Virus record (IMG/VR): IMGVR_UViG_3300028898_000252
Span: 1-29,945 of that record
Origin: a virus
Taxonomy: Duplodnaviria > Heunggongvirae > Uroviricota > Caudoviricetes
DNA: 29,945 nt
Strand: one strand, 5' to 3'
In this document: in pieces, positions 1,042 through 23,585 of the stretch
Position numbering within the stretch: position 1 is the stretch's first letter
How the letters are laid out: every line of letters starts with the position of its first letter
Program-made: the position numbers and the translations under genes
The notes under the pieces: model-generated
What the model was told of the DNA's origin: nothing
Databases searched by the model: none
Seen by the model: only the letters and a program-made list of their open reading frames with translations

Positions 1042-1548
1042 TTAGGTTTCCTTTCCGATTGTTATGAGAAGTTTGCGTTCAGAATCCTTTAAAGGTTGAT
1101 CGATTTTATACTGTCCAACCAGTTTCAATAAATCCTCAATAATTTCTCTTCCAAGATTTTTATACTCTAATTCCCTTCCAGAAAACTTGCAAACAATTTG
1201 AACTTTATGACCGTCTTCCATCCAATCTTTAATTTTGGATGCCTTTGTTTCAAGATCATTGTAATCTGTCACGGGGCGAACTTGAACTTCTTTCAAGTCA
1301 AGAACTTTTTGTTTTTGAGCCTTTTGTTTCTTTTGTTGCTCAAACTTAAACTTTCCATAATCCATAATTTTACAAACAGAGTTTCCGTCTTTTGTTTTTG
1401 CAATTTCAATTAAATCTAATTCGCTTTGTTGAGCCTCTTTGAGTGCTTCGGCAAAAGGAACACTTTTTTTGGTTTCTCCAGTTGAAGAAATTAAAACAAC
1501 TGTTGCCGATTTAATTTGATGATTGATTTTTGCTTTTACGTCTTTCAT
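1042..1548 (-). CDS. infC: Translation initiation factor IF-3
   Basis: Both domains present: INHQI...VVLI...ALKEAQQSELDLIEIA...VCKIMDYGKFKFEQQKKQK, then KEVQVRPVTDYNDLETK...GHKVQIVCKFSGRE. Confidence 0.95.
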   Translation of the reverse strand: MKDVKAKINHQIKSATVVLISSTGETKKSVPFAEALKEAQQSELDLIEIAKTKDGNSVCKIMDYGKFKFEQQKKQKAQKQKVLDLKEVQVRPVTDYNDLETKASKIKDWMEDGHKVQIVCKFSGRELEYKNLGREIIEDLLKLVGQYKIDQPLKDSERKLLITIGKET

Positions 1549-2674: not shown

Positions 2675-3097
2675 TTAGAATTTAAGATTTCCAGGTCCAA
2701 AAGCTTGCGGAAGCAACTCGCTAATGTTTGTGAATTTTCCGACCTTGCCGCTCGACACGAGCCACACGGGACAGTCCGCAGTGAATTCAGAAATAAACTG
2801 TCTACACGCCCCGCACGGCGACGCAGGATGCTCGCCTCCGACGGCGACCACAATTAGGTCGATTGATTTAGGTTTATATTGAATTAATTCAACCAAAGCA
2901 GCTCTCTCAGCACAAATGGTTAAACCATAAGAAGCATTCTCCACATTGGTTCCATAGACAACAATTTGTTCTTTGTCTTTTAGGGTTGCAACAATCGCGG
3001 CACCAACACTAAAACCAGAATATGGAGAATAAGAGAAATTGCGAAACAAGTCAGTTTGAACAACAACATCTTCATGATTTATATATTTTGCTTTCAT
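2675..3097 (-). CDS. cdd: Cytidine deaminase (homotetrameric type)
   Basis: YSPYSGFSVGAA, GTNVENASYGLTICAERAAL, PCGACRQ, ELLPQAFGP. Confidence 0.95.
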   Translation of the reverse strand: MKAKYINHEDVVVQTDLFRNFSYSPYSGFSVGAAIVATLKDKEQIVVYGTNVENASYGLTICAERAALVELIQYKPKSIDLIVVAVGGEHPASPCGACRQFISEFTADCPVWLVSSGKVGKFTNISELLPQAFGPGNLKF

Positions 3098-12526: not shown

Positions 12527-12553
12527 TTGGAATTTTTCCTTTGTTTGATGTTG

Positions 12554-12627
12554 TAGGCATGAATGGATTTGAACCATTGACTTCCCCGTTATAAGCAGGG
12601 CACTCTAAACCGCTGAGTTACATGCCT
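12554..12627 (-). tRNA. trnI: tRNA-Ile(UAU), no encoded CCA
   Basis: AGGCATG-TA-ACTC-AGCGGTTTA-GAGT-G-CCCTG-CTTATAA-CGGGG-AAGTC-AATGG-TTCAAAT-CCATT-CATGCCT-A; anticodon TAT. Confidence 0.93.
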
Positions 12628-12639
12628 GTTGAGTTTTGT

Positions 12640-12999
12640 TTATCTAACCAAAAACTCTGCAAAAAATTCTACTCCTTTTTCTCTAACAAACTCTGTATAT
12701 TCAATTCTCGTGGCGTCAATTAAAACCGTGGGTAAATAAGCACCACTAGCTAGTTTATCTTGAAGTTTCTTAATTGCAAGAGTATACCGATCAAGATAGT
12801 TAGATTCAATAATTTCATTTGAATCATATTGGGATAATCCAGTACCATCAGGTCCATGAGATAAATTAGATTCAAATAATCTTTCTTCTTTGCAAAGAAA
12901 AAGAAAATCTGCTCCGTTATGGACACAAGCCATATACAAAGCTTTGTCATCCAATTTTTTTATAAATTCCATTGCTCTTTCGAATTCGCGTGATCCCAT
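12640..12999 (-). CDS. Hypothetical protein between two tRNAs
   Basis: 119-aa ORF with AAAGGA RBS. Confidence 0.8.
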   Translation of the reverse strand: MGSREFERAMEFIKKLDDKALYMACVHNGADFLFLCKEERLFESNLSHGPDGTGLSQYDSNEIIESNYLDRYTLAIKKLQDKLASGAYLPTVLIDATRIEYTEFVREKGVEFFAEFLVR

Positions 13000-13022
13000 G
13001 TTTGTTATTCCTTTATTTCTTG

Positions 13023-13104
13023 TGGATGCGGCAAGAATCGAACTTGCTTGCCCATAAGGGCGAGTGATTTACAGTCACTTGCGAATCCATTTCGCATCGC
13101 ATCC
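13023..13104 (-). tRNA. trnY: tRNA-Tyr(GUA), long variable arm, no encoded CCA
   Basis: GGATGCG/CGCATCC acceptor, AGTGA-CTGTAAA-TCACT anticodon arm, GCAAG-TTCGATT-CTTGC T arm; atypical A at position 8. Confidence 0.9.
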
Positions 13105-13325
13105 TTAGTTAACACCTTGCTTGTCATCGCTCTCGTGTGGTGTTATCACGGACTTTATTTTTTGTTTAGGGATTTGGTTTGGCCACATAAACAGATTGGA
13201 GAAGTCTAACCAAGCAAACGTACAGCGTTTGCAACTGTCCTAGTTTCCTACTAGAAAAAGGTCCGAACAGCCTATTCGGCTAGGTATTTCCAAACCGACA
13301 AGTTTGGGAACATTCTTTATGGATT
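13105..13325 (-). ncRNA. Candidate structured RNA B, directly upstream of tRNA-Tyr
   Basis: About 225 nt without a credible ORF; successive hairpins at 13290-13307, 13263-13279, 13239-13261, 13214-13232 and 13110-13145. Confidence 0.55.
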
Positions 13326-13330
13326 TTAAA

Positions 13331-13582
13331 TTATTCAGTAACAGAAAGTCTAAGCGTTCCTGTTTTAACAGGAGATTCATCATCTGAGTTTTTAAACAAT
13401 CTAATTTGTGAGTTTTCATAATCCATAGAAATATGAGAAAACATTTCTCCAGGGGGAAAACCAAGCATCGGAACCAAAAGCTTGCAATTCATAAAACTAA
13501 ACATAACAGTATCAATTTGATCCCACTCTTCCCAAGAAAAGAGTTGGTTTTCAATATTTTTCTTGAGGTCTTCTGGATTCAT
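13331..13582 (-). CDS. Hypothetical protein
   Basis: 83-aa ORF in the array. Confidence 0.8.
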   Translation of the reverse strand: MNPEDLKKNIENQLFSWEEWDQIDTVMFSFMNCKLLVPMLGFPPGEMFSHISMDYENSQIRLFKNSDDESPVKTGTLRLSVTE

Positions 13583-13587
13583 TTGTT

Positions 13588-13917
13588 TTATTCTCCTGTG
13601 TTTGTGTTTTGTTCGAAGTGAACGGAAGGAAAATAGACAACCATTTTAAGTCCAAAACTATCCCAATTAATTGTTCTTAAAGAACGAAAGAAATCTTGTT
13701 GTTCGATATGGGTTGCCTCATCATCTTCGAACATTTCAAATGCTGTTTTTGTAATTTCGGAGAGAAGATTTCCAAATTCTTCTGTTGAAGTAACAACCGC
13801 CAAACATTGTTTTCCGCACATTCCTTTTCCGCTATAGTTTTTAAGTTCATAACATTCTTCTTCAAAAGAGTCGCTGTTAATTTTTTCCAAAATCTTTTGA
13901 ATGATATGCTTTGACAT
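13588..13917 (-). CDS. Conserved large-phage hypothetical protein
   Basis: YSGKGMCGKQCLAV...DSFGLKMVVYFP resembles a YSGRGMYG...D.MG...I.Y.P family I recall. Confidence 0.8.
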   Translation of the reverse strand: MSKHIIQKILEKINSDSFEEECYELKNYSGKGMCGKQCLAVVTSTEEFGNLLSEITKTAFEMFEDDEATHIEQQDFFRSLRTINWDSFGLKMVVYFPSVHFEQNTNTGE

Positions 13918-13960
13918 TTATTCTCTCTCTTGATTCTTTTGCGGGTGCCGACGCAGAGAC

Positions 13961-13988
13961 ACCTTAGCCATCACACGGCAACAGTCAA
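13961..13988 (-). promoter_or_regulatory. Promoter TTGACT-N16-TAAGGT
   Basis: Intergenic, 16-bp GC-rich spacer. Confidence 0.6.
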
Positions 13989-14608
13989 GCCCCTTCTAAA
14001 AGAGCAATTGCTGAATGTTTAACATGAACAACCCTTTCCGTGTTTAGAAGTTTTAATCTTAAAACTGTTTTGTTTTTCAATTCAGCAATAATAACAGCCA
14101 AACCATATTTGGTTTTTACTATTTTATTGGTTAAATCTTTCTGTGCTTCTTTTTTTGAGAAAAGATTTATTTCTGTTTCGGTTGGGATAAAATTTATTTC
14201 GTTATAATTTCCATAAAAAGTTTTGTTTGCAGACTTAACCAAAACAAGAGCAGTTTTTAGTTTTTCATCCCAAGAGATAAGTTCTCCAATTTTGTTTCTA
14301 ATAAGAACAGTCTGTCCCTTAGTTTTTTCTTTTTTCTTATTAGTTTGGCCGCAATATCTTTTCACTGTTTCAAATGTGAGAAACGTAACTATCGCTTCGT
14401 TTCGTTTATCAAAAACAAAGAATAACTTATTTCCTTCAAAATCAATCGTTTTTATTAATGAGTTGTTTGTTTGAATTAAGACAGTGGAAGCAAATCCATT
14501 TTTTGTTAGAGATAGGAGTTTGTCATATTTTTCATCAGTAAGAATGACTCCATATCTCTGATATGCTCTTTTTATAGCATGTCGTTTTTGTGATTCTTGA
14601 TGTTTCAT
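13985..14608 (-). CDS. Protein with N-terminal DUF4258/RelE-like domain and two KOW/SH3-like domains (tentative)
   Basis: HAIKRAYQRYG...FFVFDKRNEAIVTFL, then KGQTVLIRNKIGELI and KIVKTKYGLAVI repeats. Start at MKHQ (14608). Confidence 0.6.
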   Translation of the reverse strand: MKHQESQKRHAIKRAYQRYGVILTDEKYDKLLSLTKNGFASTVLIQTNNSLIKTIDFEGNKLFFVFDKRNEAIVTFLTFETVKRYCGQTNKKKEKTKGQTVLIRNKIGELISWDEKLKTALVLVKSANKTFYGNYNEINFIPTETEINLFSKKEAQKDLTNKIVKTKYGLAVIIAELKNKTVLRLKLLNTERVVHVKHSAIALLEGA

Positions 14609-14651
14609 ACCTTTTTGGTTTAAGATTAAAACCAAAATAGTTTTGAATTAG

Positions 14652-14723
14652 ATTCACCAGGAAAGCAAAAGGACTAGAACTTATCTGATTGTTTGAAGGA
14701 AGTCCTTTTATAGCCTAGTGAAT
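14652..14723 (-). ncRNA. 72-nt hairpin abutting the tRNA-Ile(GAU) CCA end
   Basis: ATTCACTAGG/CCTGGTGAAT (10 bp, one G-U) enclosing AAAAGGACT/AGTCCTTTT (9 bp). The G-U pair only works on the minus strand. Confidence 0.55.
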
Positions 14724-14798
14724 TGGTAGTCTGCCGCGGATTTGAACCACGAACTGCTCCCTTATCAAGAGAGAACTCTACCCTTGAGTTAGCAGACT
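14724..14798 (-). tRNA. trnI: tRNA-Ile(GAU) with encoded CCA
   Basis: AGTCTGC/GCAGACT acceptor, CTCTC-TTGATAA-GGGAG anticodon arm, CGTGG-TTCAAAT-CCGCG T arm, ACCA end. Confidence 0.93.
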
Positions 14799-14817
14799 AA
14801 TTTTTATTTCTCGTTTT

Positions 14818-14840
14818 GGTAGAAGTTTGTTGCTTCTACC
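14818..14840 (-). other. Hairpin in the tRNA leader
   Basis: GGTAGAAG-CAACAAA-CTTCTACC, perfect 8-bp stem between the promoter and the tRNA. Confidence 0.5.
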
Positions 14841-14854
14841 GCGGCGATCTACAC

Positions 14855-14882
14855 AGTATAATCACCCGACCGTCTGTGTCAA
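14855..14882 (-). promoter_or_regulatory. Promoter TTGACA-N16-TATACT
   Basis: Near-consensus hexamers upstream of tRNA-Ile(GAU). Confidence 0.75.
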
Positions 14883-14892
14883 CTGCCAAGGG

Positions 14893-15972
14893 TCATATGT
14901 TTGTTTTTTTAACATTTAAACGCCTTAATTCTTCTTTCAACCAAGAAATAGTGGATATTATCCATTCTTTTCTAAAAATTTGCAGTTGCCATTCTCTATT
15001 GCAAGGAAGAACTAAAGACTGTTCAAAATTTGAAAGTGATTTCTCATAATTTCCAAGATTGTGATAAGAAAAACCTAACATCTCTCTATATTGGTAACAG
15101 TCCTGTTCTTTTTTAAGAGAAAGATACTTTTCTAGAAAGTCAATACATTCTTTAAAATTATTTTTTTGTATCATTTCTAGTGAAGCTTTAAAAGCTGCGT
15201 GTTCTGGTAGTGTACTTTTATCACATTTAAAAGCCAATTCTTTGAAAATCGGAACATATTCATTATATCTATATTTCTTTTCTGGGTGACATAACATTTC
15301 ATCTGCGAGATAATATCTGCATCGATCAATTAACTCTGGATCAGTTTCAAACCTTAACCAGTTTTTTAAAATTGAAAAATTTCTTTCGTTGAAATTTCTT
15401 GCTCCATTTGAACGATGAATAACTTTAGATTTTGCAACCAGTTTTGTAAAACTATCTCTTCCATCTTTATGATCCAAAAATTCATGAACAGGAGTTCTCC
15501 AATACCATCCAATTTTATTTTTAACAATTCTTTCTCTAAAGAAGTTTTCGCCTTGAATGCAAACAGTTCTGTCTTCGTTCCAGCCATACATATATTGCAT
15601 TGATAAATAATTTCTTTTTCCAGCAGCTTTCAAGGTTTCAAAATCTTTTCGAAACCAATAAATATCATCAATTTGATCATCTGTATCCAACCACATAACC
15701 CAAGGTTGGGTTGCATAAGAAAAAGATTCTTCTCTCGGTGCCGCGAAAGACATTAGTCTTCCATCCAAATCAAGATATTTCTTTCCTGTTGCATACACTT
15801 TTTCTGTATATTTTTTAGCAACAGCAACAGAATCATCTGTTGACCCTGTATCAACAACAACAATCTCTTTTACAACAGGAGACATTTGTCCAAGAATAAA
15901 ATCTAAATTTTGCGCGTCATTTCTGTTGATCATACACAAAGACAAGTCTAGTTTTTCAGTTTCTTCAGACAT
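14893..15972 (-). CDS. Glycosyltransferase family 2 with C-terminal TPR region
   Basis: LSLCMINRN...EIVVVDTGSTDDSV...FAAPR...WVMWLDTDD...WRTPVHE; TPR-like LGFSYHNLGNYEKSL. Start at MSEETE (15972). Confidence 0.92.
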   Translation of the reverse strand: MSEETEKLDLSLCMINRNDAQNLDFILGQMSPVVKEIVVVDTGSTDDSVAVAKKYTEKVYATGKKYLDLDGRLMSFAAPREESFSYATQPWVMWLDTDDQIDDIYWFRKDFETLKAAGKRNYLSMQYMYGWNEDRTVCIQGENFFRERIVKNKIGWYWRTPVHEFLDHKDGRDSFTKLVAKSKVIHRSNGARNFNERNFSILKNWLRFETDPELIDRCRYYLADEMLCHPEKKYRYNEYVPIFKELAFKCDKSTLPEHAAFKASLEMIQKNNFKECIDFLEKYLSLKKEQDCYQYREMLGFSYHNLGNYEKSLSNFEQSLVLPCNREWQLQIFRKEWIISTISWLKEELRRLNVKKTNI

Positions 15973-15988
15973 TTTTGGTCTCCTGGTT

Positions 15989-16288
15989 TTAAAGGTTATA
16001 TAACTTCTTAATACAATCAACAAGTTCTTGATCGGGGTGGTCTGATTGTATTAGACCAATTTTAGATTGTTTTGTTTCGTGTTCTCTAAAATACCACTCG
16101 ATTTCAAATTCTTCATCTTGATATATGTCAAACTGTAAAAGTTTGTTATTGGCAAAATAACTTAATCGAATTGATGGATCAACACTATTTGAAAGAACTT
16201 CTTCAAATGGTTCTGCGCTTGGGTTGAACTGTCTTACAATACTCTCAACTTGTTCAATTTTTATTAGTATTTTTTTTGTTATTTCCAT
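15989..16288 (-). CDS. Hypothetical protein
   Basis: 99-aa ORF in the array. Confidence 0.75.
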   Translation of the reverse strand: MEITKKILIKIEQVESIVRQFNPSAEPFEEVLSNSVDPSIRLSYFANNKLLQFDIYQDEEFEIEWYFREHETKQSKIGLIQSDHPDQELVDCIKKLYNL

Positions 16289-16306
16289 GACACATTTTTT
16301 CTTTTT

Positions 16307-16744
16307 TTATATATTAAAAATCGCGGGATTCTTGCAGTTCTTCAAACTCCAATCAATCCAAAACTCCAACCAAATCAATCTAGCTAAAACATCATCAAAT
16401 TTTGTGTCCATAAATCCTGGTACAGCGTTTGGATGCCTCGCGATCCAATTTGTTTTAGTTTCTTGAATCTTGGATAAGTGTTCTGGTTTTAAGATAAAAC
16501 AACCTGGGTGTGCGCTCATAAGACCACATTTTTCATCAAAAAAGAAATCATTGAGTTCTGCTTTTTTAACAAAATCATGCCATCCACCATAACTTGGGTG
16601 TCTGCCGTTTTTATTACTACTTAATGGATCGCCTGTAAAACTTGGAGCTACAGGCAAACATTTTTCGTGAACCCGAGGAATATACATTCCAGAGTATTTC
16701 TCTTTTTCAAGAACTGCTTCACCGATGTAGATACTGTATCCCAT
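16307..16744 (-). CDS. Conserved phage hypothetical protein
   Basis: MGYSIYIGEA...PSYGGWHDF...GLMSAHPGC...LARLIWLEFWIDW...NCKNPAI; recalled phage family, function unknown. Confidence 0.85.
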   Translation of the reverse strand: MGYSIYIGEAVLEKEKYSGMYIPRVHEKCLPVAPSFTGDPLSSNKNGRHPSYGGWHDFVKKAELNDFFFDEKCGLMSAHPGCFILKPEHLSKIQETKTNWIARHPNAVPGFMDTKFDDVLARLIWLEFWIDWSLKNCKNPAIFNI

Positions 16745-16749
16745 GTTTT

Positions 16750-16962
16750 TTATCTTTCTATAGCTGTTGAGTTCTTTTTTTGCCCACAATAAAAACACAC
16801 CAATTCCGCATATTGATTGTTTACCACTTTTGATAATTCATAATCATGTCTTCCAAACTTACAGAGCTGTTTACTCACTACAGGAATAGAACATGGATTA
16901 AACCTGTAAAAATTAATTGTTAAAACAATTTCTTCTATTTTTGATTTAAGTTTATCAATCAT
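16750..16962 (-). CDS. Small Cys/His protein (DUF1660-like)
   Basis: LCKFGRHDY...CFYCG. Confidence 0.7.
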   Translation of the reverse strand: MIDKLKSKIEEIVLTINFYRFNPCSIPVVSKQLCKFGRHDYELSKVVNNQYAELVCFYCGQKKNSTAIER

Positions 16963-17210
16963 TCTATTCCAAGATATGTTTCATATGAATGAATTATTCT
17001 ACAGTTGCTTCCAAAACCTTTGCAAGTTTCATGTCCAAGCGAACTGGAACATTTCCTGCTTCTGTGCCCACCAATAGCGGTAATGTTTTCAAACGGATCT
17101 AAACTTTCGCAATAAGAATTTATAATTTCAACTGTATGATTAGTTGAAAGATTCAAGTCTTTTTTACAAACCTGGTCCTGAAAAAGTGATATGTCTTTTA
17201 CTTTATCCAT
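16959..17210 (-). CDS. Small Cys-rich hypothetical protein
   Basis: 83 aa; ATGA overlap with the next gene. Confidence 0.7.
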   Translation of the reverse strand: MDKVKDISLFQDQVCKKDLNLSTNHTVEIINSYCESLDPFENITAIGGHRSRKCSSSLGHETCKGFGSNCRIIHSYETYLGIE

Positions 17211-17225
17211 TTTATTTTCTCTTTC

Positions 17226-17843
17226 TTACCACGCGAAACGAATATTCTTTTTTATAAGTTTTGGACTGATTTGTTCTTTTAATTCATCCGTCAAAATTTC
17301 ATCTGACATAAGAGTCACTCCAGTTCTAAACAATTTTTTTGAAAGTGTGAAATCGTCCAATAAACTATTAACAAATGCACTGTCGGCAAAATACGGCGCA
17401 GGACGACGGCATCTATAGCAATAACTTGTCGAAACAGGAATACAGAAACAAGTTAACTGTGCTTTCCTCATTTTGTAATCATCGAGGTCTTCTGATCTCT
17501 TTTTTTGTATTTCGGCTAACCGACACAAAAGTCCAACGAAATTCTTTTCTTGCATTTCATCAAGATTTGGTATTAAATGCCTGCAATCCTTTTCTCTTGC
17601 CCCAATCATATCCCAGCGTAACCAAAATCCATAATAACTTATTAGTGAGTTTCTTGAAATCCAATCCCACGCATAAATATTTTTATATGTTTTTACTTTA
17701 TTTGTGGTCTCGCAAAATTCACCTTCAACAAGATAAACACTTGGAATAAAACCTTGTTTTACGGTAGAAAGCGCGGCGCCAGTAAAGTGTTTGTAAAACA
17801 CCTTGTCTGAATTTTCTGTAATAAATCCATAAAACTGTTTCAT
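17226..17843 (-). CDS. Hypothetical protein with Cys cluster
   Basis: 205 aa; CFC...CYRC motif. Confidence 0.8.
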   Translation of the reverse strand: MKQFYGFITENSDKVFYKHFTGAALSTVKQGFIPSVYLVEGEFCETTNKVKTYKNIYAWDWISRNSLISYYGFWLRWDMIGAREKDCRHLIPNLDEMQEKNFVGLLCRLAEIQKKRSEDLDDYKMRKAQLTCFCIPVSTSYCYRCRRPAPYFADSAFVNSLLDDFTLSKKLFRTGVTLMSDEILTDELKEQISPKLIKKNIRFAW

Positions 17844-17852
17844 TGTCTTATC

Positions 17853-18356
17853 CTATTGTTGTTTTTTGATTGATTTTATTATTTCATACTCTTCTCTGGT
17901 TTCAAACCTAAGACGAGTACCTACTTCAGAAACCAATCCAAGCTCAACATATTTGTTAAAACCTTTATTACCAATATATGATATAATCTTCTCCACAGAC
18001 CAAGGTTTATCATTTACTCCTTTTTCAGAAGCCCAGTGAGTCATTCCAGAAGTTGTATGAACACAGATTTCTGAAATGTAGTTTCCAGAAACTCCTCTAC
18101 CAAAATGAGCAGAACACCAACAATTTGGATTAGTCTTTAAACAAGAAAGATTCTTTTCGGCTTTATTTGAAATTATACGTCTAAAATCAATTGGGCTCCA
18201 ATATAAAACAACCTTGTTCACAGTGTGATTAAAACAATCTACCCCATTGAAAACATCTCCAGGTTTCAAATTCATCATCCAAACAAAAATCAAAATCAAT
18301 ATAGTCTCCACCACCAATTCCAATGTCAGATTGAACCTCTCCCTCGAAACTATCAT
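17853..18356 (-). CDS. Paralog of 20301-20795 with an apparently chimeric N-terminus
   Basis: WMMNLKPGD...NHTV...RLRFETREE aligns by eye with WAMNLKPGD...NHIV...RLRSATEEE. The first ~25 aa come from an alternative frame of the broken Zn-finger gene; the start could be 18278. Confidence 0.7.
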   Translation of the reverse strand: MIVSRERFNLTLELVVETILILIFVWMMNLKPGDVFNGVDCFNHTVNKVVLYWSPIDFRRIISNKAEKNLSCLKTNPNCWCSAHFGRGVSGNYISEICVHTTSGMTHWASEKGVNDKPWSVEKIISYIGNKGFNKYVELGLVSEVGTRLRFETREEYEIIKSIKKQQ

Positions 18357-18452
18357 TTGTTTTTAAAAATTTAACCACACACACAAGTCAGATGTTTTTC
18401 CGTTAACATGGACAAGTCTTTCAGACTGGCACCTCATACACTTTTTATTCAT
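18279..18452 (-). pseudogene. Frameshifted, truncated Zn-finger gene (paralog of 5409-5639)
   Basis: ATGA-coupled start at 18452 gives MNKKCMRCQSERLVHVNGKTSDLC. The -1 frame continues ...KTNDSFEGEVQSDIGIGGGDYIDFDFCLD and then runs into the next gene. Confidence 0.75.
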
Positions 18453-19036
18453 TTAGATTCTCCTTTAGACGGTTGCCCCAACCATTCTTCAATCTTGGTT
18501 ATAAGCTCGTCAAACCCACTGTAAAAAGCTTGTGTTGGATTCTGACTTGAAGAGAATGTGATTGACTCTGTTGCGGTTTTAGACGCGGCAACAAGCATGT
18601 AATCTGCCCCAACTTTGTTAAGTTTAAAATCATAAGAAATTCCATTCTCTAGAGAGAGTTCTCCAGTATATTTCAAACGAACATTCTCATCTCCAACAAA
18701 ATAAGAATCGTAATAAGGATCGTTAATCAGGTTATACAATTCTTGTAAAAATCCTTGGTCTGGATATTCCTCTTCTTTGTGAGCTTCAAACTCTTCTCGA
18801 ATTCTTTTCCAAAATTTTTGCTGCTCTTTGGATAAAATCTTTAACTCGCTAATAAATGTTTCTATATGATTTCCATCGACAGTATAAGATATTTCAGACG
18901 ATTCGTTTCCTTGAACTAATAATGAATCTATGTTTTGAATGACTTCGCACTGAATATCGGAAATTTTCTTCACAGAAAACTTCGCGCAACATTCCAACAT
19001 GCCATAAAACTTAAATTCATTCTTTTGTTGTTCCAT
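18449..19036 (-). CDS. Hypothetical protein
   Basis: 195-aa ORF in the array. Confidence 0.8.
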   Translation of the reverse strand: MEQQKNEFKFYGMLECCAKFSVKKISDIQCEVIQNIDSLLVQGNESSEISYTVDGNHIETFISELKILSKEQQKFWKRIREEFEAHKEEEYPDQGFLQELYNLINDPYYDSYFVGDENVRLKYTGELSLENGISYDFKLNKVGADYMLVAASKTATESITFSSSQNPTQAFYSGFDELITKIEEWLGQPSKGESK

Positions 19037-19039
19037 AGT

Positions 19040-19288
19040 TTATTCTTCTTTGTATTCGGGGCAGTCCTTGAGGAAACCTTGAGAAAAGGTTTTGCTTGCA
19101 TCTTTCACTTCAATATAAATTCTTCTCCTATATGGTCCAACAGCATTACCAATTGTAATAGAAATAACTGAACCCGTAAAAAACATTCTTTGAGTTATAC
19201 TTTTTCTTGACTGTATTTTTTCTTCGCCGTGAAAGAAAATACATAGAACGTCTTGTGTTTTATCATATGTTGTTTTACAAAGCTGCAT
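19040..19288 (-). CDS. DUF2283-like protein (divergent)
   Basis: TTYDKTQDVLCIFF...IYIEVKDASKTF. Confidence 0.6.
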   Translation of the reverse strand: MQLCKTTYDKTQDVLCIFFHGEEKIQSRKSITQRMFFTGSVISITIGNAVGPYRRRIYIEVKDASKTFSQGFLKDCPEYKEE

Positions 19289-19343
19289 TTTTATTTTGTT
19301 ATCCTTTTTCTTTATTGACTATTTGCAATATTTTACATCAAAA

Positions 19344-20012
19344 TTAATATTCAATTTTTTCTTGATTTGAAGGTTGTGGTAATAAAGAAACACGAGTTCT
19401 TAAATTTAAAATATAACGAGGATATTCCACGGGCGGCAAAACTTCGTGAATTACTTGATTTCCATTTCCGAATCCTGGTGCCCTCAAAAACATTACTGTT
19501 CCAGACTGAGTTTCAAACTCATCTATCTGTTCAATAAAACTATAGTCTACTGGTTCTGTTAAAGACTTGTATATTTTTATTTTGGCTTTACCACTTATCG
19601 TAAATGTCAGCGAAAGTTTCTTATCACTCCACCTATCTCTATGAGGAGAAATATAATCTTTCGGCGATCTATATTTCTGATATCCTATTTCATTTGGATA
19701 CCAACCAGAAAGTTCAAAAAACTTTTCCAGACCATTTAGCTTCTTTAGTTGTTTGCAAAGAGCGTTTGCAATTGGAGTATTAACATCTCCTAACATTGAA
19801 TAATATCTTTCATGAGATTGTGTAACTTTATACGTTTTATTTTGATTTATTGGATTAATAATATGATTACCATATTCAAGTGGTAAAAATTTTACTTCTT
19901 TTAAAAGTTTTTCTATAAGGTCTGAATCTGTTTCATTTGAAAAACAATATCCATTTTCATATGTTTTTTGCAAACAGTCAACTATATCAAATCTTTCTGT
20001 AAAGACCTTCAT
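19344..20012 (-). CDS. 2OG-Fe(II) oxygenase (AlkB-like)
   Basis: ISPHRD (HxD), SLTFTISG, VIHEV (distal His), RYILNLR. Start at MKVFTE (20012). Confidence 0.85.
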   Translation of the reverse strand: MKVFTERFDIVDCLQKTYENGYCFSNETDSDLIEKLLKEVKFLPLEYGNHIINPINQNKTYKVTQSHERYYSMLGDVNTPIANALCKQLKKLNGLEKFFELSGWYPNEIGYQKYRSPKDYISPHRDRWSDKKLSLTFTISGKAKIKIYKSLTEPVDYSFIEQIDEFETQSGTVMFLRAPGFGNGNQVIHEVLPPVEYPRYILNLRTRVSLLPQPSNQEKIEY

Positions 20013-20013
20013 T

Positions 20014-20292
20014 CTAAGGTCGGTCGCTTTCTTTTTCTTCTGATTCAAGTTGTTCACAGCCATCGAGAAATTTTTGAGTAAATATATTCGAAGCACCTAA
20101 AAACTCAAGACCAACCAAAGTGCTAAACCCAGCAATTTTGGCATAATCAGCCATAAAAGAAACTCCTCCTGGGGTTTCCAACTCTTCTGTTTTTGAGACC
20201 TCATATCCGTTCACATGAGTCAAGTACAAATAAACCGCATCAGCAAGTTTATCGTATGTTGCCCTGTGAACCAGTTTTTTCTTTGTTGCCAT
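20014..20292 (-). CDS. DUF2283-like protein
   Basis: ATYDKLADAVYLYL...MADYAKI...LVGLEFLGAS matches the YD..AD.LYI.L...D....LVGIEIL.AS pattern. Confidence 0.75.
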   Translation of the reverse strand: MATKKKLVHRATYDKLADAVYLYLTHVNGYEVSKTEELETPGGVSFMADYAKIAGFSTLVGLEFLGASNIFTQKFLDGCEQLESEEKESDRP

Positions 20293-20300
20293 TTTAGTTT

Positions 20301-20795
20301 CTACTTTCTTTTATGAGTTTTTGATTTACTGTAAAAACTTTCAATAAAGGCATTTTCTTCTTCTGTTGCCGAACGAAGTCTGTATCCGTTTTTATCAATA
20401 ATTCCGAACTCAATCATTTTATCAACAACCGAACCTGATATTCCACCATCAAAATAATTCCTTATTTGTTCTATTGGCCACGCTGGTTCAATACAGCCTG
20501 TCTCCGAAATGGAATGTAACCATCCATCTGTTGTAAAAATATCAACGTCCAAAACGAACACACCTCCTGGGCATCGCCCAAACGATGCACGATTATCTTT
20601 AATGATTTTCATTCTTGGTGAGACTGTTTGCCATATAATTTTAATAGATTTTACGATATGATTCCAAGAATCATATGAGTTAATACCATCTCCAGGTTTT
20701 AGATTCATTGCCCAGACATAATCTTTTCTCTTTTGTTTAGAAAAGAGCCTATGGAAAACTCTATTTGTTGTTCCTCTAGTAAGTCTAGTTTTCAT
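20301..20795 (-). CDS. Hypothetical protein, paralog of 17853-18356
   Basis: Shared MNLKPGD...NH.V and C-terminal G.RLR..T.EE. Confidence 0.85.
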   Translation of the reverse strand: MKTRLTRGTTNRVFHRLFSKQKRKDYVWAMNLKPGDGINSYDSWNHIVKSIKIIWQTVSPRMKIIKDNRASFGRCPGGVFVLDVDIFTTDGWLHSISETGCIEPAWPIEQIRNYFDGGISGSVVDKMIEFGIIDKNGYRLRSATEEENAFIESFYSKSKTHKRK

Positions 20796-21398
20796 TCACT
20801 TTCTTTCCAGAACTGTTGAGTGAATAAATCCACCTAGTTTTGACAGATCAGAAACAACATGAAAACGATTCGAAAACATTTTAATTGTTTCTCTGTCGAT
20901 ATTGCACCCAAATTCTTCCTTTGCTTTCTTTTCGACAAACTTCAAAAGAAGTTTCATAAAAAAACTTTCTGGTTTAACATGCTCAAGAAGTAGAATCTTT
21001 CCTTTTTCTGAAAGGACTCGATCCACCTCGTTCATAACTGTTTCTGGATTTCCAAATGTACAAAACCCAAGTTGGCAGACAACAAAATCCATTGAGTTTG
21101 AAGGAATGTCAACCATTGATTCAACATCTGATTGAATTGGCTTAAATTGAATTCCGTGATACAAAGCTTTTCGTTTTGCCGCTTCTAATGCCTCAGAAGA
21201 AATATCAACTCCAGTAACTTCGCAGTCTTGTTCTTGATACAGTGACAAACCTTTGCCTGTCGAAACAGCGAGCTCAAGAACTTTTCCTTTAATTGGGCCA
21301 GCTGTTTCTTTCAGCTTTTGCCGCATAGGAGAAAACAAGTGTTTCTCGGCAAAGTCTGTTTTCTCATCATACGTTCCGTCTCTGTACACCTGTTTCAT
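20796..21398 (-). CDS. Class I SAM-dependent methyltransferase (PmtA/METTL7-like)
   Basis: VLELAVSTG (degenerate motif I), VTGVDIS, DFVVCQLGFC, RVLSEKGKILLLEHV, GCNIDR. Confidence 0.9.
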   Translation of the reverse strand: MKQVYRDGTYDEKTDFAEKHLFSPMRQKLKETAGPIKGKVLELAVSTGKGLSLYQEQDCEVTGVDISSEALEAAKRKALYHGIQFKPIQSDVESMVDIPSNSMDFVVCQLGFCTFGNPETVMNEVDRVLSEKGKILLLEHVKPESFFMKLLLKFVEKKAKEEFGCNIDRETIKMFSNRFHVVSDLSKLGGFIHSTVLERK

Positions 21399-21477
21399 TA
21401 CTTGTTTCCTTTGTTGATTGGTTTTGCTTCAAATGTTTTTAAGTTAACCAATATTTCTTCATTCGAATCAAAAAATT

Positions 21478-21933
21478 TTAACTTTTGCCATTTTGAAAAA
21501 ATGACTTCTTTGTTTGGATTACTCCTTCAAATAAAAGTCTTTGATAGTCTTCAAAAGATTTGATTATGACTAAATTCGAATTTTTCGTTTTCAGCGAAAC
21601 AACGCTAGGTTTACCGAGAATTGTACTACCAGTAGTAGAGTCAAAATGATAATTATTTTTTATTATATCAAATTGATTTTGAGAATCAAACCTTGTCACA
21701 TTATAAAAAAATGGTCTAACTATTTGAAAAACTGGTTCTGCGCATCTTTCACAATAAGACTTAAACATCAGTAGATTACACTGGCTATAAAACACAACGG
21801 CTGTATAATTTTGTAGATGATCGCCCCATTTTGTGCTAAACCTTTTATGTCCCAACAATCTACACAGCAAATGGCCTTTTGATTTTGGGGTTGAATCAGC
21901 CAAAACGAGACCAGTTTCTTGATTGCGGTACAT
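21478..21933 (-). CDS. Hypothetical protein (DUF1660-like N-terminus); possible -1 C-terminal extension to 21398
   Basis: LLCRLLGHK...CERC; the -1 frame stays open across the 80-nt gap. Confidence 0.75.
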   Translation of the reverse strand: MYRNQETGLVLADSTPKSKGHLLCRLLGHKRFSTKWGDHLQNYTAVVFYSQCNLLMFKSYCERCAEPVFQIVRPFFYNVTRFDSQNQFDIIKNNYHFDSTTGSTILGKPSVVSLKTKNSNLVIIKSFEDYQRLLFEGVIQTKKSFFQNGKS

Positions 21934-21994
21934 GGTTGCCTCTGAGCGTAGGTATGCACTGATAGAGTAGCTGTAAATCCCTAGAAGAAAACCA

Positions 21995-22443
21995 TTAGAA
22001 AAATTCGTTTTTTAGTGCTGTGAGACTATCAGACAGCAAGTTATTTTCGGTAACTTCTTTTAGTTCCCAATTTGCTGGTGCAATATCTGCGCGATAATTA
22101 TAACTTTCTTCATCGCGATAGGGAAGAAAAAATACAGAAACAAGTTTTTTTCGTTTTAAACGATATTCATTGATACATTTTTTTATTACTTTTCCGAGAG
22201 AAGTTTTTTGAAACTTGCTTGTTAAAGAATTAAACATATCAACCGTTTGAACTTTATCAAGTTCATTTAACATTTCTTTTATTTCGTTTTCGAAAACTAA
22301 TTTTTGTTCTGGAGAGTCTACTGCGGGAGGCTTTAAACCCTCTTCTCGGAACTTTTCAAGAAAGTCTTTCCCCGCAAGAACTAATGCTTTTCAGATGTGA
22401 AAAGATGAACACCACTTTCAGGGTGAGATGTTAAAATGAACAT
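21995..22443 (-). pseudogene. Gene split by a -1 frameshift near 22388-22395 (FSSE-family-like)
   Basis: ATG 22443 gives MFILTSHPESGVHLFTSEKH*; the -1 frame continues ALVLAGKDFLEKF...EIKEMLNELDK into track ORF 21995..22273. Confidence 0.7.
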
Positions 22444-22445
22444 AG

Positions 22446-22904
22446 TTAATGCCTAACAAACTTAAACCTTGTTTCTTTTAGGAGTTCTTCCTTTGGAGAA
22501 AATTCATGAATTTCAATGGAGTCAAGGCTAACTCCCCAATGTTTCCATTCTGGGCTAACTTCAACCTCTTCTGCCTTTTTGGTTGCAAGCTCTCTAGTTT
22601 CGTGTACTGATTCTAATTTAATATTTCCTTTAGTAGAGCTAAAGGAGTCATATTCTGTAAAGAATACTATTACTGCATATACATTTTCAGCTTCATAAAT
22701 TTCTTTTGAAACTTCCACATCACCATATCCATCCTTAACAAAACTCTGTTTTCTCAAATGTTGAATATTATGAGTTAAAATTCTTGGTTTTCTTTCATAA
22801 GAACTACCCTTGCAACGTTCGCCGCCAGTTGAAGTAGTTTCACAAACCAAAGTCATGTAATATGAAAGTTCTTTTGAGTCACTTGTTTCTTTGTGCCGCT
22901 GCAT
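22446..22904 (-). CDS. Hypothetical protein
   Basis: 152-aa ORF; C-terminal half VYAVIVF...SVHETRELA resembles the FSSE family. Confidence 0.75.
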   Translation of the reverse strand: MQRHKETSDSKELSYYMTLVCETTSTGGERCKGSSYERKPRILTHNIQHLRKQSFVKDGYGDVEVSKEIYEAENVYAVIVFFTEYDSFSSTKGNIKLESVHETRELATKKAEEVEVSPEWKHWGVSLDSIEIHEFSPKEELLKETRFKFVRH

Positions 22905-23247
22905 TGAATTCCTTTTCCCATCTTTTCTTGTTTTCTTCTTCTAGTTTAATTGATTCTTCTGAACGAATCAATTTGCCATTATCAAAATAATGATACCTAA
23001 AATCAGATATACAATGCGAGGCTGCGGTGGTAATATAGCCAATTTCTTCTTTAGAATAAGTTTTAGAAAGAAGGTCTCTATCAATTGCATGATTAAAACA
23101 CTTTATCCCCTCCCAGGAAGCATGTTTGACAGGAAACCCATATGAAGCGAGTAGGTCTCTCAGTTTTTGTTTTTCCTCTTTTGGAAGACCAAAAACATCA
23201 TATGGGATTAATTTAATATCAAGCTTTTCTTTTGGGAGAGAATCCAT
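22879..23247 (-). CDS. Hypothetical protein
   Basis: 122-aa ORF in the array. Confidence 0.75.
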   Translation of the reverse strand: MDSLPKEKLDIKLIPYDVFGLPKEEKQKLRDLLASYGFPVKHASWEGIKCFNHAIDRDLLSKTYSKEEIGYITTAASHCISDFRYHYFDNGKLIRSEESIKLEEENKKRWEKEFNAAAQRNK

Positions 23248-23251
23248 TTTT

Positions 23252-23419
23252 TTACTCCTTATTCTTTTTGCTGATTTTAGAGACGCCTGTTATGACTGCC
23301 CCGAACGCGGCATCCACAATCGAAGAAACAATGTTTCTTTCAATTCTCTTTACCGCTGTCTTCACAACCTTCTCCGCAAGCGAAGCAGGAATTGATTTTT
23401 TAGCTTTTGGTTTTGCCAT
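23252..23419 (-). CDS. Small basic amphipathic protein (55 aa)
   Basis: Start at MAKPKAKK (23419); the track start lies in the tRNA. Confidence 0.65.
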   Translation of the reverse strand: MAKPKAKKSIPASLAEKVVKTAVKRIERNIVSSIVDAAFGAVITGVSKISKKNKE

Positions 23420-23454
23420 TTTATTTCTTTTCTCTTTTTGGTTTATTGTTTTAG

Positions 23455-23541
23455 AGGATAGCACAGGATTCGAACCTGTGGAACTCGTTAGAGTTCAGAA
23501 GTTTTCTAGACTTCCGCCTTAAACCGCTCGGCCAGCTATCC
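23455..23541 (-). tRNA. trnS: tRNA-Ser(AGA), long variable arm, no encoded CCA
   Basis: GGATAGC-TG-GCC-GAGCGGTTTAA-GGC-G-GAAGT-CTAGAAA-ACTTC-TGAACTCTAACGAGTTCC-ACAGG-TTCGAAT-CCTGT-GCTATCC-T; anticodon AGA. Confidence 0.9.
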
Positions 23542-23585
23542 ATTATTTTACTATTATAATTTAACTAGTTTTATTTTGCAGTAGC

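What the first reader, a model, noticed from the sequence alone, without database searches (positions are those of the whole stretch)
12554..23541. Two non-bacterial-type anticodons in one phage: a possible modification-independent decoding set
Ile(UAU) and Ser(AGA) both pair by plain Watson-Crick rules with A/U-ending codons that a high-GC host would use rarely. The tRNAs are dispersed among ordinary genes, and three of four lack CCA. Hypothesis: the phage re-anticodoned host-type tRNA bodies to fill codon gaps or to escape anticodon nucleases aimed at host isoacceptors.
Basis: inference. Interest (0 to 1): 0.7.

Follow-up and report, generated by a model that had tools for sequence, protein, structure and literature searches.

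The report
Phage tRNAs Ile(UAU) and Ser(AGA)
A giant, AT-rich wastewater phage carries real, conserved tRNA genes for Ile(UAU) and Ser(AGA) that pair directly with its own abundant AUA and UCU codons; the Ile type is common in phages, while the serine tRNA with an A-starting anticodon is rare but recurrent.

Summary
The window holds four minus-strand tRNA genes: Ile(UAU), Tyr(GUA), Ile(GAU) and Ser(AGA). Only Ile(GAU) encodes CCA.

The window is the start of a complete 390,884-bp phage of 32.9% GC with a T4-like terminase and 21 tRNAs. The rest of the set is ordinary: one more Ile(UAU), one CUA suppressor and no further A34 tRNA.

Ser(AGA) is not an assembly error. Five independent assemblies are identical. 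Diverged relatives keep it at the same site with compensatory stem changes and an invariant CTAGAAA loop. Other relatives lack it there.

Ile(UAU) is commonplace in viral contigs (at least 119 IMG/VR hits). Ser(AGA) is rare: 3 in 185,579 species genomes and 37 distinct sequences overall.

The two anticodons match abundant phage codons (AUA 31% of Ile; UCU 35% of Ser, the top Ser codon). This fits codon supply by direct Watson-Crick pairing.

The "high-GC host" premise is unsupported, because the host is unknown. Nuclease escape is untested. The phage encodes no TadA-like deaminase, TilS, SerRS, IleRS or CCA-adding enzyme.

This scan has already reported phage Ser(AGA) and other A34 tRNAs on other DNA. 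I rate it a new member of a known kind, of moderate interest.

The parts
12553..12627 (-). tRNA-Ile(UAU), 75 nt, A73, no encoded CCA
   Evidence: ARAGORN; Infernal 67.1 bits; kept in close relatives L170-L172 with a single D-loop change over the part of the tRNA their contigs cover, complete and ARAGORN-confirmed only in L171; paralogue of a second Ile(UAU) at genome 311715-311791
13022..13104 (-). tRNA-Tyr(GUA), bacterial class II type with long variable arm, no encoded CCA
   Evidence: ARAGORN; Infernal 47.6 bits with relaxed filters; conserved in L170 and L171
14724..14798 (-). tRNA-Ile(GAU), the only one of the four with encoded CCA
   Evidence: ARAGORN; Infernal 53.1 bits; conserved in L170
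23454..23541 (-). tRNA-Ser(AGA), 88 nt, class II with long variable arm, loop CTAGAAA (A34), U73 discriminator, no encoded CCA; the only Ser tRNA of the phage
   Evidence: ARAGORN; Infernal 52.4 bits; identical in 5 assemblies; syntenic AGA orthologues with compensatory stem changes in L041, L042, L043 and L046
22879..23247 (-). 122-aa ORF downstream of tRNA-Ser, used as the synteny anchor to find relatives
   Evidence: Homologues at 96-60% identity; their contigs either keep tRNA-Ser(AGA) or carry GC-rich hairpins in its place
12640..12999 (-). 119-aa ORF between tRNA-Tyr and tRNA-Ile(UAU), used as the synteny anchor
   Evidence: Homologues at 93% and 86% identity; their contigs keep Tyr and Ile(UAU)
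2675..3097 (-). Cytidine deaminase (Cdd), examined and rejected as a candidate A34 deaminase
   Evidence: TIGR01354 116.9 bits, above its cut-off; PDB sequence hits are all cytidine deaminases

Best explanation
These are functional phage tRNA genes that top up decoding of the phage's own most-used A/U-ending codons in an AT-rich (33% GC) jumbo phage. They are charged and given their CCA ends by host enzymes.

tRNA-Ser(AGA) is the phage's only serine tRNA. It most likely reads UCU, the phage's commonest Ser codon, through a direct A34:U Watson-Crick pair, probably with A34 left unmodified.

The two tRNA-Ile(UAU) paralogues read AUA without needing lysidine (TilS).

Shown here: the genes are real, conserved under structural constraint, and cognate to abundant phage codons, and the phage encodes no dedicated modifying or charging enzyme for them.

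Inferred: they are expressed and charged, A34 and U34 stay unmodified, and they give a benefit relative to the host tRNA pool.
For: 1. All four tRNAs have canonical structures and high covariance-model scores.

2. Ser(AGA) is kept at the same site in a lineage whose neighbouring protein is only 64% identical. In an alignment of five U73 Ser(AGA) tRNAs, 12 of 25 helix pairs show compensatory double changes, while the loop CTAGAAA and U73 are invariant.

3. Codon usage over 470 ORFs gives UCU as 35% of Ser (rank 1 of 6) and AUA as 31% of Ile. In all six families of four or more codons that are served by a single phage tRNA (Ser, Thr, Gly, Ala, Pro, Arg), the Watson-Crick codon of that tRNA is the top codon. 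Usage is uniform along the genome. In the relative L041, UCU is again the top Ser codon at 34%.

4. The phage has no TadA-like enzyme. Cdd is a nucleoside deaminase. The second, 117-aa deaminase folds like tetrameric cytidine and blasticidin-S deaminases: pLDDT 86.8, and all 50 top PDB matches are of that type.

5. The phage has no TilS, no SerRS-class or IleRS-class enzyme, and no CCA-adding enzyme.

6. Independent Ser(AGA) genes recur in other viral and metagenomic tRNA clusters, several of them beside a Ser(UGA), which fits an added dedicated UCU reader.

7. Literature: Ser-tRNA(AGA) made in E. coli is expressed, stays unmodified and is tolerated (bioRxiv 10.64898/2026.05.15.725136). Unmodified U34 tRNA-Ile(UAU) decodes AUA in Mycoplasma mobile (PMC3575796).
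Against: - The host is unknown, so enrichment of AUA and UCU relative to the host, which is the core of the codon-compensation idea, is untested. A low-GC host might already read these codons well.
- There are no expression, charging or modification data.
- U73 is atypical for bacterial tRNA-Ser: G73 occurs in 27 of 37 distinct Ser(AGA) genes. It could lower charging by SerRS.
- tRNA-Ile(UAU) is a poor substrate for IleRS enzymes with Trp at the wobble-contact site, and it misreads AUG on E. coli ribosomes (PMC3575796).
- Some close relatives lack the Ser tRNA at this site (L048-L050), so it is dispensable.
- Retention of A34 in only two lineages about 16% apart is by itself weak evidence of selection on that particular base.
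- The top-codon match partly reflects the general rule that U34 tRNAs pair with A-ending codons, which are favoured in AT-rich genomes.
Confidence: 0.6

Rival explanations
1. Inosine decoding. A34 of Ser(AGA) is deaminated to I34 by the host's TadA (one with widened specificity, as in Leuconostocaceae/Oenococcus) or by a phage enzyme. A single tRNA-Ser(IGA) would then read UCU, UCC and UCA, about 68% of the phage's Ser codons.
For: The phage has only one Ser tRNA. UCU + UCC + UCA make up 0.35 + 0.07 + 0.26 of Ser codons. Some bacteria carry extra A34 tRNAs together with TadA (PMC8007984). The phage has two CDA-fold zinc deaminases.
Against: The anticodon loop is U33-A34-G35-A36, not the U-A-C-G of the TadA substrate tRNA-Arg(ACG) (sequence; TadA specificity is from general knowledge). 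In E. coli, Ser-tRNA(AGA) stays unmodified (bioRxiv 10.64898/2026.05.15.725136). Both phage deaminases resemble free-nucleoside deaminases; no TadA or ADAT appears among the sequence hits at E<=1 or among the 50 best fold matches. PF14437 gives no significant hit.
Confidence: 0.2
2. Counter-defence. The tRNAs replace host isoacceptors that are cut by anticodon nucleases or degraded during infection, and the unusual position 34 makes them poor nuclease substrates. This does not exclude codon supply.
For: Phage tRNAs with anticodon-loop changes are proposed or shown to evade tRNA-targeting defences (PMC10264068, PMC11555353). This phage also carries a T4 Rnl1-type RNA ligase and two Rnl2-type ligases, the enzyme class T4 uses to repair cleaved tRNA. 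No bacterial Ser isoacceptor normally has A34 (PMC8007984).
Against: No nuclease, host or cleavage site is known for this system. The described nucleases that hit Ser NGA anticodons cut at G35-A36, and Ser(aga) is listed among their targets (PMC10264068), so A34 gives no obvious protection. Close relatives do without the Ser tRNA. Apart from position 34, the loop is identical to the ordinary Ser(UGA) loop.
Confidence: 0.15
3. Neutral accident. Ser(AGA) is a recent U34-to-A or G34-to-A point mutant, or a decaying gene, with no role of its own.
For: The anticodon stem-loop equals a widespread Ser(UGA) stem-loop except at position 34. Some relatives have lost the gene. 4-fold-box ANN tRNAs are tolerated in E. 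coli (bioRxiv 10.64898/2026.05.15.725136).
Against: AGA is kept in a lineage about 16% diverged in the tRNA and 36% in the neighbouring protein, with compensatory changes in all four stems. In total 37 distinct Ser(AGA) sequences occur in viral and metagenomic contigs. It is the phage's only Ser tRNA and matches its top Ser codon.
Confidence: 0.05

Closest known systems
tRNA-Ile2(UAU) of Mycoplasma mobile and redundant tRNA-Ile(UAU) genes of some bacteria such as Lactobacillus (PMC3575796; Tomikawa 2018, cited in PMC10688831)
   Same: UAU anticodon in a bacterial-type Ile body with A73. It decodes AUA without lysidine. The element that carries it encodes no TilS.
   Different: Here the gene is phage-borne and present in two paralogous copies beside an Ile(GAU). 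In M. mobile the system needs an IleRS Trp-to-Arg change and a ribosome that rejects AUG. Neither can be checked here, because the host is unknown and the phage has no IleRS. T4's own tRNA-Ile gene is the CAU (lysidine) type.
Ser-tRNA(AGA) engineered in E. coli (serX G34A; bioRxiv 10.64898/2026.05.15.725136) and natural unmodified A34 tRNAs such as Mycoplasma tRNA-Thr(AGU)
   Same: A34 in a four-codon box on a bacterial class II Ser body. The engineered tRNA was expressed, unmodified and tolerated.
   Different: This one is natural, conserved across phage lineages, has U73, and is the sole Ser tRNA of its genome. That preprint and PMC8007984 state that such tRNAs are absent from phages, which contradict.
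Eukaryotic tRNA-Ser(AGA) with ADAT2/3 (I34), and the expanded A34 sets of Leuconostocaceae/Oenococcus with TadA (PMC8007984)
   Same: The same AGA anticodon.
   Different: No TadA- or ADAT-like enzyme is encoded here. The body is of bacterial type. Whether I34 forms is unknown.
Codon-compensating tRNA sets of large phages (T4 tRNA cluster; XacN1, cited in PMC10688831)
   Same: A T4-like terminase lineage, many tRNAs, and anticodons cognate to the phage's favoured A-ending codons.
   Different: T4 carries Ser(UGA) and Ile(CAU). This phage has Ser(AGA) and Ile(UAU) instead, and some of its tRNAs are scattered among ORFs.
Nuclease-evading phage tRNAs (PMC10264068; T5 tRNAs, PMC11555353)
   Same: Phage tRNAs whose anticodon loops differ from the host norm.
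   Different: No target nuclease is known here, and the change lies in the anticodon itself, so it alters which codon is read rather than only how the tRNA is recognised.

Membership tests
tRNA (Rfam RF00005) | Cloverleaf scoring above the gathering score of 29 bits | tested here: met
   67.1, 47.6, 53.1 and 52.4 bits for the four genes; ARAGORN agrees
Bacterial class II tRNA-Ser | Long variable arm that forms a helix | tested here: met
   An 18-nt arm with a 6-bp stem; the arm pairs are kept in the alignment
Bacterial class II tRNA-Ser | G73 discriminator (typical of bacterial tRNA-Ser; general knowledge) | tested here: not met
   U73 in this phage and its relatives. Among 37 distinct Ser(AGA) genes, N73 is G in 27, U in 8 and A in 2
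Bacterial class II tRNA-Ser | Charging with serine by SerRS | not testable with these tools
   The phage has no class IIb synthetase, so a host SerRS would have to act
I34 (TadA/ADAT-dependent) tRNAs | A34 encoded in the gene | tested here: met
   Loop CTAGAAA
I34 (TadA/ADAT-dependent) tRNAs | Co-occurring A34-specific deaminase | tested here: not met
   For the phage genome only. Cdd is a cytidine deaminase, the 117-aa deaminase has a CDA/blasticidin-S-deaminase fold, and PF14437 is absent. The host enzyme is unknown
I34 (TadA/ADAT-dependent) tRNAs | Inosine present in the mature tRNA | not testable with these tools
   Needs tRNA sequencing or mass spectrometry
TilS-independent tRNA-Ile(UAU) | UAU anticodon on an Ile-type body (A73, A37, A38) | tested here: met
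   the same type occurs in at least 119 IMG/VR contigs
TilS-independent tRNA-Ile(UAU) | IleRS able to accept U34 (Trp-to-Arg at the wobble contact, PMC3575796) | not testable with these tools
   Host unknown; the phage has no IleRS
Codon-compensating phage tRNAs | Cognate codons frequent in the phage | tested here: met
   UCU is rank 1 of 6 (35%) and AUA is 31% of Ile; the match to the top codon is 6 of 6 for single-tRNA families
Codon-compensating phage tRNAs | Cognate codons rarer in the host, or host tRNA scarce | tested here: inconclusive
Anticodon-nuclease-evading phage tRNAs | Resistance to a host tRNase that cuts the host isoacceptor | not testable with these tools
   Only context is available: Rnl1-type and Rnl2-type ligases are present, and VapC-type cleavage at G35-A36 would not be avoided (PMC10264068)

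The most novel reading that the evidence does not exclude
tRNA-Ser(AGA) is a selected, unmodified-A34, dedicated UCU decoder that phages have evolved repeatedly, here as a conserved U73 lineage and the phage's only Ser tRNA. That would make phages a natural reservoir of the four-box ANN tRNAs that reviews call absent from bacteria and phages. It would also give a system for asking why cells avoid A34 while viruses tolerate or favour it.
Probability: 0.4. Interest if true: 0.55.

Novelty: new member of a known kind. Interest (0 to 1): 0.4.

Why it matters
Reviews and a 2026 experimental preprint state that A-starting anticodons other than Arg(ACG) are missing from bacteria and from phages. Here a complete jumbo phage relies on a conserved Ser(AGA) as its only serine tRNA, and dozens of further distinct Ser(AGA) genes occur in viral and metagenomic tRNA clusters. 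That corrects the literature statement. It also offers natural material for testing whether unmodified A34 is a good Watson-Crick reader of U-ending codons, and what U73 does to serine identity.

The Ile(UAU) part is ordinary for phages. The idea of a coordinated 'modification-independent set' aimed at a high-GC host is not supported.

Tried and rejected
- **Cultured phages.** Megablast of 12 kb of the window found no match. Distant blastn with the Ile(UAU) and Ser(AGA) genes found no homologous tRNA.
- **Relatives through the 243-aa upstream ORF.** None in IMG/VR.
- **Terminase relative G001** (79% identity, 185 kb fragment). It contains no tRNA, so it was uninformative.
- **The genome search 'relatives'.** Not available for a virus record.
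- **Host identification.** The cdd protein scan of 185,579 species genomes found no relative. ESM Atlas neighbours of Cdd and IF3 span many phyla. The host remains unknown.
- **My recollection that T4 tRNA-Ile is UAU was wrong.** The T4 gene has CAT.
- **Own promoter for tRNA-Ser.** The consensus scan found none. Only a TATAAT about 12 nt upstream is conserved.
- **Shine-Dalgarno usage as a host clue.** The count was too crude, because start codons were not refined, so I did not use it.
- **Phage-encoded A34 deaminase.** Rejected for both CDA-fold proteins.
- **L085 'Ser(aga)'** from ARAGORN did not align as a Ser tRNA and was disregarded.
- **Complex prediction.** Not used; no binding claim is made.


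Full report
**1. What is there**

ARAGORN finds four tRNA genes in the window, all on the minus strand: Ile(UAU) 12553-12627, Tyr(GUA) 13022-13104, Ile(GAU) 14724-14798 and Ser(AGA) 23454-23541.

Infernal against Rfam confirms all four. Three pass with default filters at 67.1, 53.1 and 52.4 bits. Tyr scores 47.6 bits with relaxed filters. The gathering score is 29 bits.

The cloverleaves are canonical. Ile(UAU) has the loop CTTATAA and A73. Ser(AGA) has the loop CTAGAAA, a long paired variable arm, G1-C72, G2-C71 and A3-U70, but U73. Only Ile(GAU) is followed by CCA.

**2. Context**

The window is the first 30 kb of a complete 390,884-bp IMG/VR virus record with direct terminal repeats.
- GC content is 32.9%.
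- The standard genetic code gives about 90% coding.
- The large terminase is T4-like at roughly 30% identity.

The whole genome has 21 ARAGORN tRNAs. Sixteen lie between 12.5 and 37.2 kb, one CUA suppressor lies at 61.5 kb, and four lie at 308-312 kb, among them a second Ile(UAU) that does encode CCA. Every other anticodon starts with U, G or C. Ser(AGA) is the only A34 tRNA and the only Ser tRNA.

The phage encodes no CCA-adding enzyme, no class IIb (SerRS-type) or class Ia (IleRS-type) synthetase, and no TilS. Host enzymes must therefore mature and charge these tRNAs.

**3. Is A34 real and maintained?**

The protein downstream of the Ser tRNA (122 aa) occurs letter for letter on 14 contigs. 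In the five assemblies whose DNA could be read, the flanks and the tRNA are 100% identical to the window. An assembly error is therefore excluded.

Homologues of that protein at 64% identity lie on contigs that carry a tRNA-Ser(AGA) at the same position (L041, L042, L043, L046). Compared with the window copy, these orthologues have paired changes in the acceptor, D, anticodon and T stems. The loop CTAGAAA and U73 are unchanged.

In an RNAalifold analysis of five U73 Ser(AGA) genes, 12 of 25 pairs show compensatory double changes. This is the signature of a working tRNA.

Two caveats apply:
- With about 16% divergence between the two lineages, an unchanged base 34 alone is weak evidence of selection on that base.
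- Three other relatives, whose neighbouring protein is 96%, 93% and 66% identical, have GC-rich hairpins instead of the tRNA. The gene is therefore dispensable.

The Ile(UAU), Tyr and Ile(GAU) genes are kept in close relatives (L170-L172). The two Ile(UAU) genes of the phage share an identical T arm and are paralogues. They do not resemble the phage's Ile(GAU).

**4. How unusual are the anticodons?**

Ile(UAU) is thus an ordinary phage tRNA, although T4 itself carries the CAU, lysidine-dependent type.

*Ser(AGA).* The exact anticodon stem-loop with any base at position 34 occurs in IMG/VR tRNAs only as Ser(UGA). A pattern for this D-arm type plus CTAGAAA gave the following:

| Collection | Pattern hits | Confirmed Ser(AGA) tRNAs |
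|---|---|---|
| IMG/VR viral contigs | 5 | 5 |
| 185,579 species genomes | 5 | 3 (all in MAGs) |
| Metagenome contigs | 42 loci | most |

Together with the syntenic relatives L041 and L043, the loci in this table give 37 distinct Ser(AGA) sequences, many inside tRNA clusters and several next to a Ser(UGA). The discriminator is G in 27, U in 8 and A in 2.

Ser(AGA) is therefore rare but recurrent. This contradicts the statements in PMC8007984 and in bioRxiv 10.64898/2026.05.15.725136 that such tRNAs are absent from phages. Earlier follow-ups of this scan reached the same conclusion on other DNA (e1-4037748, e1-5386063), and PMC10264068 lists tRNA-Ser(aga) among mycobacteriophage tRNA types. The kind is therefore not new.

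**5. What they do**

Over 470 non-overlapping ORFs, AUA is 31% of Ile codons (23.7 per 1000). UCU is 35% of Ser codons (26.5 per 1000) and is the commonest Ser codon. Usage is even along the genome.

In all six amino-acid families with four or more codons that are served by exactly one phage tRNA (Ser, Thr, Gly, Ala, Pro, Arg), the codon that pairs by Watson-Crick rules with that anticodon is the family's top codon. Ser is the one family whose top codon ends in U, and it is the one with an A34 tRNA. In the relative L041, UCU is again the top Ser codon at 34%.

This fits codon supply for the phage's own AT-rich genes, with direct pairing. The supporting literature is as follows:
- In E. coli, an engineered Ser-tRNA(AGA) is expressed, stays unmodified and is tolerated (bioRxiv 10.64898/2026.05.15.725136).
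- In M. mobile, an unmodified UAU tRNA reads AUA, but it needs an adapted IleRS and ribosome (PMC3575796).

**6. Inosine rival**

The phage has two CDA-fold proteins.
- The one in the window (2675-3097) is a tetrameric cytidine deaminase: TIGR01354 at 116.9 bits, and its PDB sequence hits are all cytidine deaminases.
- The other is 117 aa, at genome coordinates 348353-348706, and has HAE and PCxxC motifs. With an alignment of 17 sequences it folds at pLDDT 86.8. All 50 best PDB matches are tetrameric cytidine deaminases or blasticidin-S deaminases, and none is TadA or ADAT.

There is thus no sign of a phage A34 deaminase. A host TadA with broad specificity cannot be excluded.

**7. Defence rival**

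The phage carries a T4 Rnl1-type ligase and two Rnl2-type ligases, so pressure from tRNA-cutting nucleases is plausible. Nothing, however, links Ser(AGA) or Ile(UAU) to a nuclease. The described VapC enzymes that target Ser NGA anticodons cut at G35-A36 (PMC10264068), a site that A34 leaves intact.

**8. Host**

The 'high-GC host' premise is unsupported. The phage is 33% GC. A scan with Cdd found no close bacterial relative, and Atlas neighbours of Cdd and IF3 are spread over many phyla. Enrichment of AUA and UCU over the host therefore remains the main open test.

**9. Verdict**

- Ile(UAU) is ordinary.
- Ser(AGA) with U73, as the sole and conserved Ser tRNA of a jumbo phage, is a good new member of a rare but already noticed kind.

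Noticed in passing
L048:1-110, L049:455-635, L050:245-425 (relatives); syntenic with window 23454-23541: In three relatives, the slot that holds tRNA-Ser(AGA) in this phage is filled by a sequence with one or two GC-rich hairpins (TTTGCCGCG-TTTA/TAAA-CGCGGC). This is a presence/absence polymorphism among close relatives. The exact hairpin is absent from this genome, although TTTGCCGCG occurs 16 times.
   Followed up: partly
G000 genome 348353-348706 (-), = L004:1465-1818: A 117-aa minimal zinc deaminase (HAE...PCGGC) with about 18 homologues, mostly on phage-like contigs. The predicted fold resembles tetrameric cytidine and blasticidin-S deaminases. Its substrate is unknown.
   Followed up: yes
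L170:2640-2776, L171:1270-1446, L172:905-1053 versus window 12553-12640: Close relatives have an extra stretch of about 100 nt, with a possible tiny ORF after a GGAGG, between the 119-aa gene and tRNA-Ile(UAU). This stretch is missing in the window phage.
   Followed up: no
L172:420-520: In this relative the tRNA-Tyr region has a 5-nt deletion and changes around the anticodon stem, and ARAGORN no longer calls a tRNA. It may be a decaying copy.
   Followed up: no
window 23542-23575 (-) and L041/L043 upstream of tRNA-Ser: A TATAAT hexamer about 12 nt upstream of the tRNA-Ser 5' end is conserved between the two diverged lineages. The strict sigma-70 scan finds no complete promoter, because the -35 element is weak.
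   Followed up: partly
L181, L179/L205, L180/L218 (metagenome contigs): Some tRNA clusters hold several A34 tRNAs together: Ser(AGA)+Val(AAC) on a 26% GC contig, Ser(AGA)+Pro(AGG), and Ser(AGA)+Leu(AAG)+Arg(ACG). Some Ser(AGA) genes that are followed by T-runs and lack CCA may be eukaryotic nuclear genes.
   Followed up: no
L176 (855-bp contig binned to a Flexilinea MAG), L035, L202, L186: U73 instead of G73 recurs in 8 of 37 distinct Ser(AGA) genes, including this phage lineage. Its effect on serine identity is unknown.
   Followed up: partly
G000 genome 376652-377290 (-), 231187-231600 (-), 337163-337735 (-): One T4 Rnl1-type and two Rnl2-type RNA ligase genes, a possible tRNA-repair kit.
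   Followed up: no
G000 genome 30868-30942 (-): ARAGORN's tRNA-Leu(UAG) is only 75 nt and lacks the long variable arm expected of bacterial Leu tRNAs. An earlier follow-up on the adjacent array (e1-1688200) also noted non-canonical members.
   Followed up: no
window 1042-1548 (-): A full-length IF3 homologue (IF3_N and IF3_C domains) is encoded 11 kb from the tRNAs.
   Followed up: no
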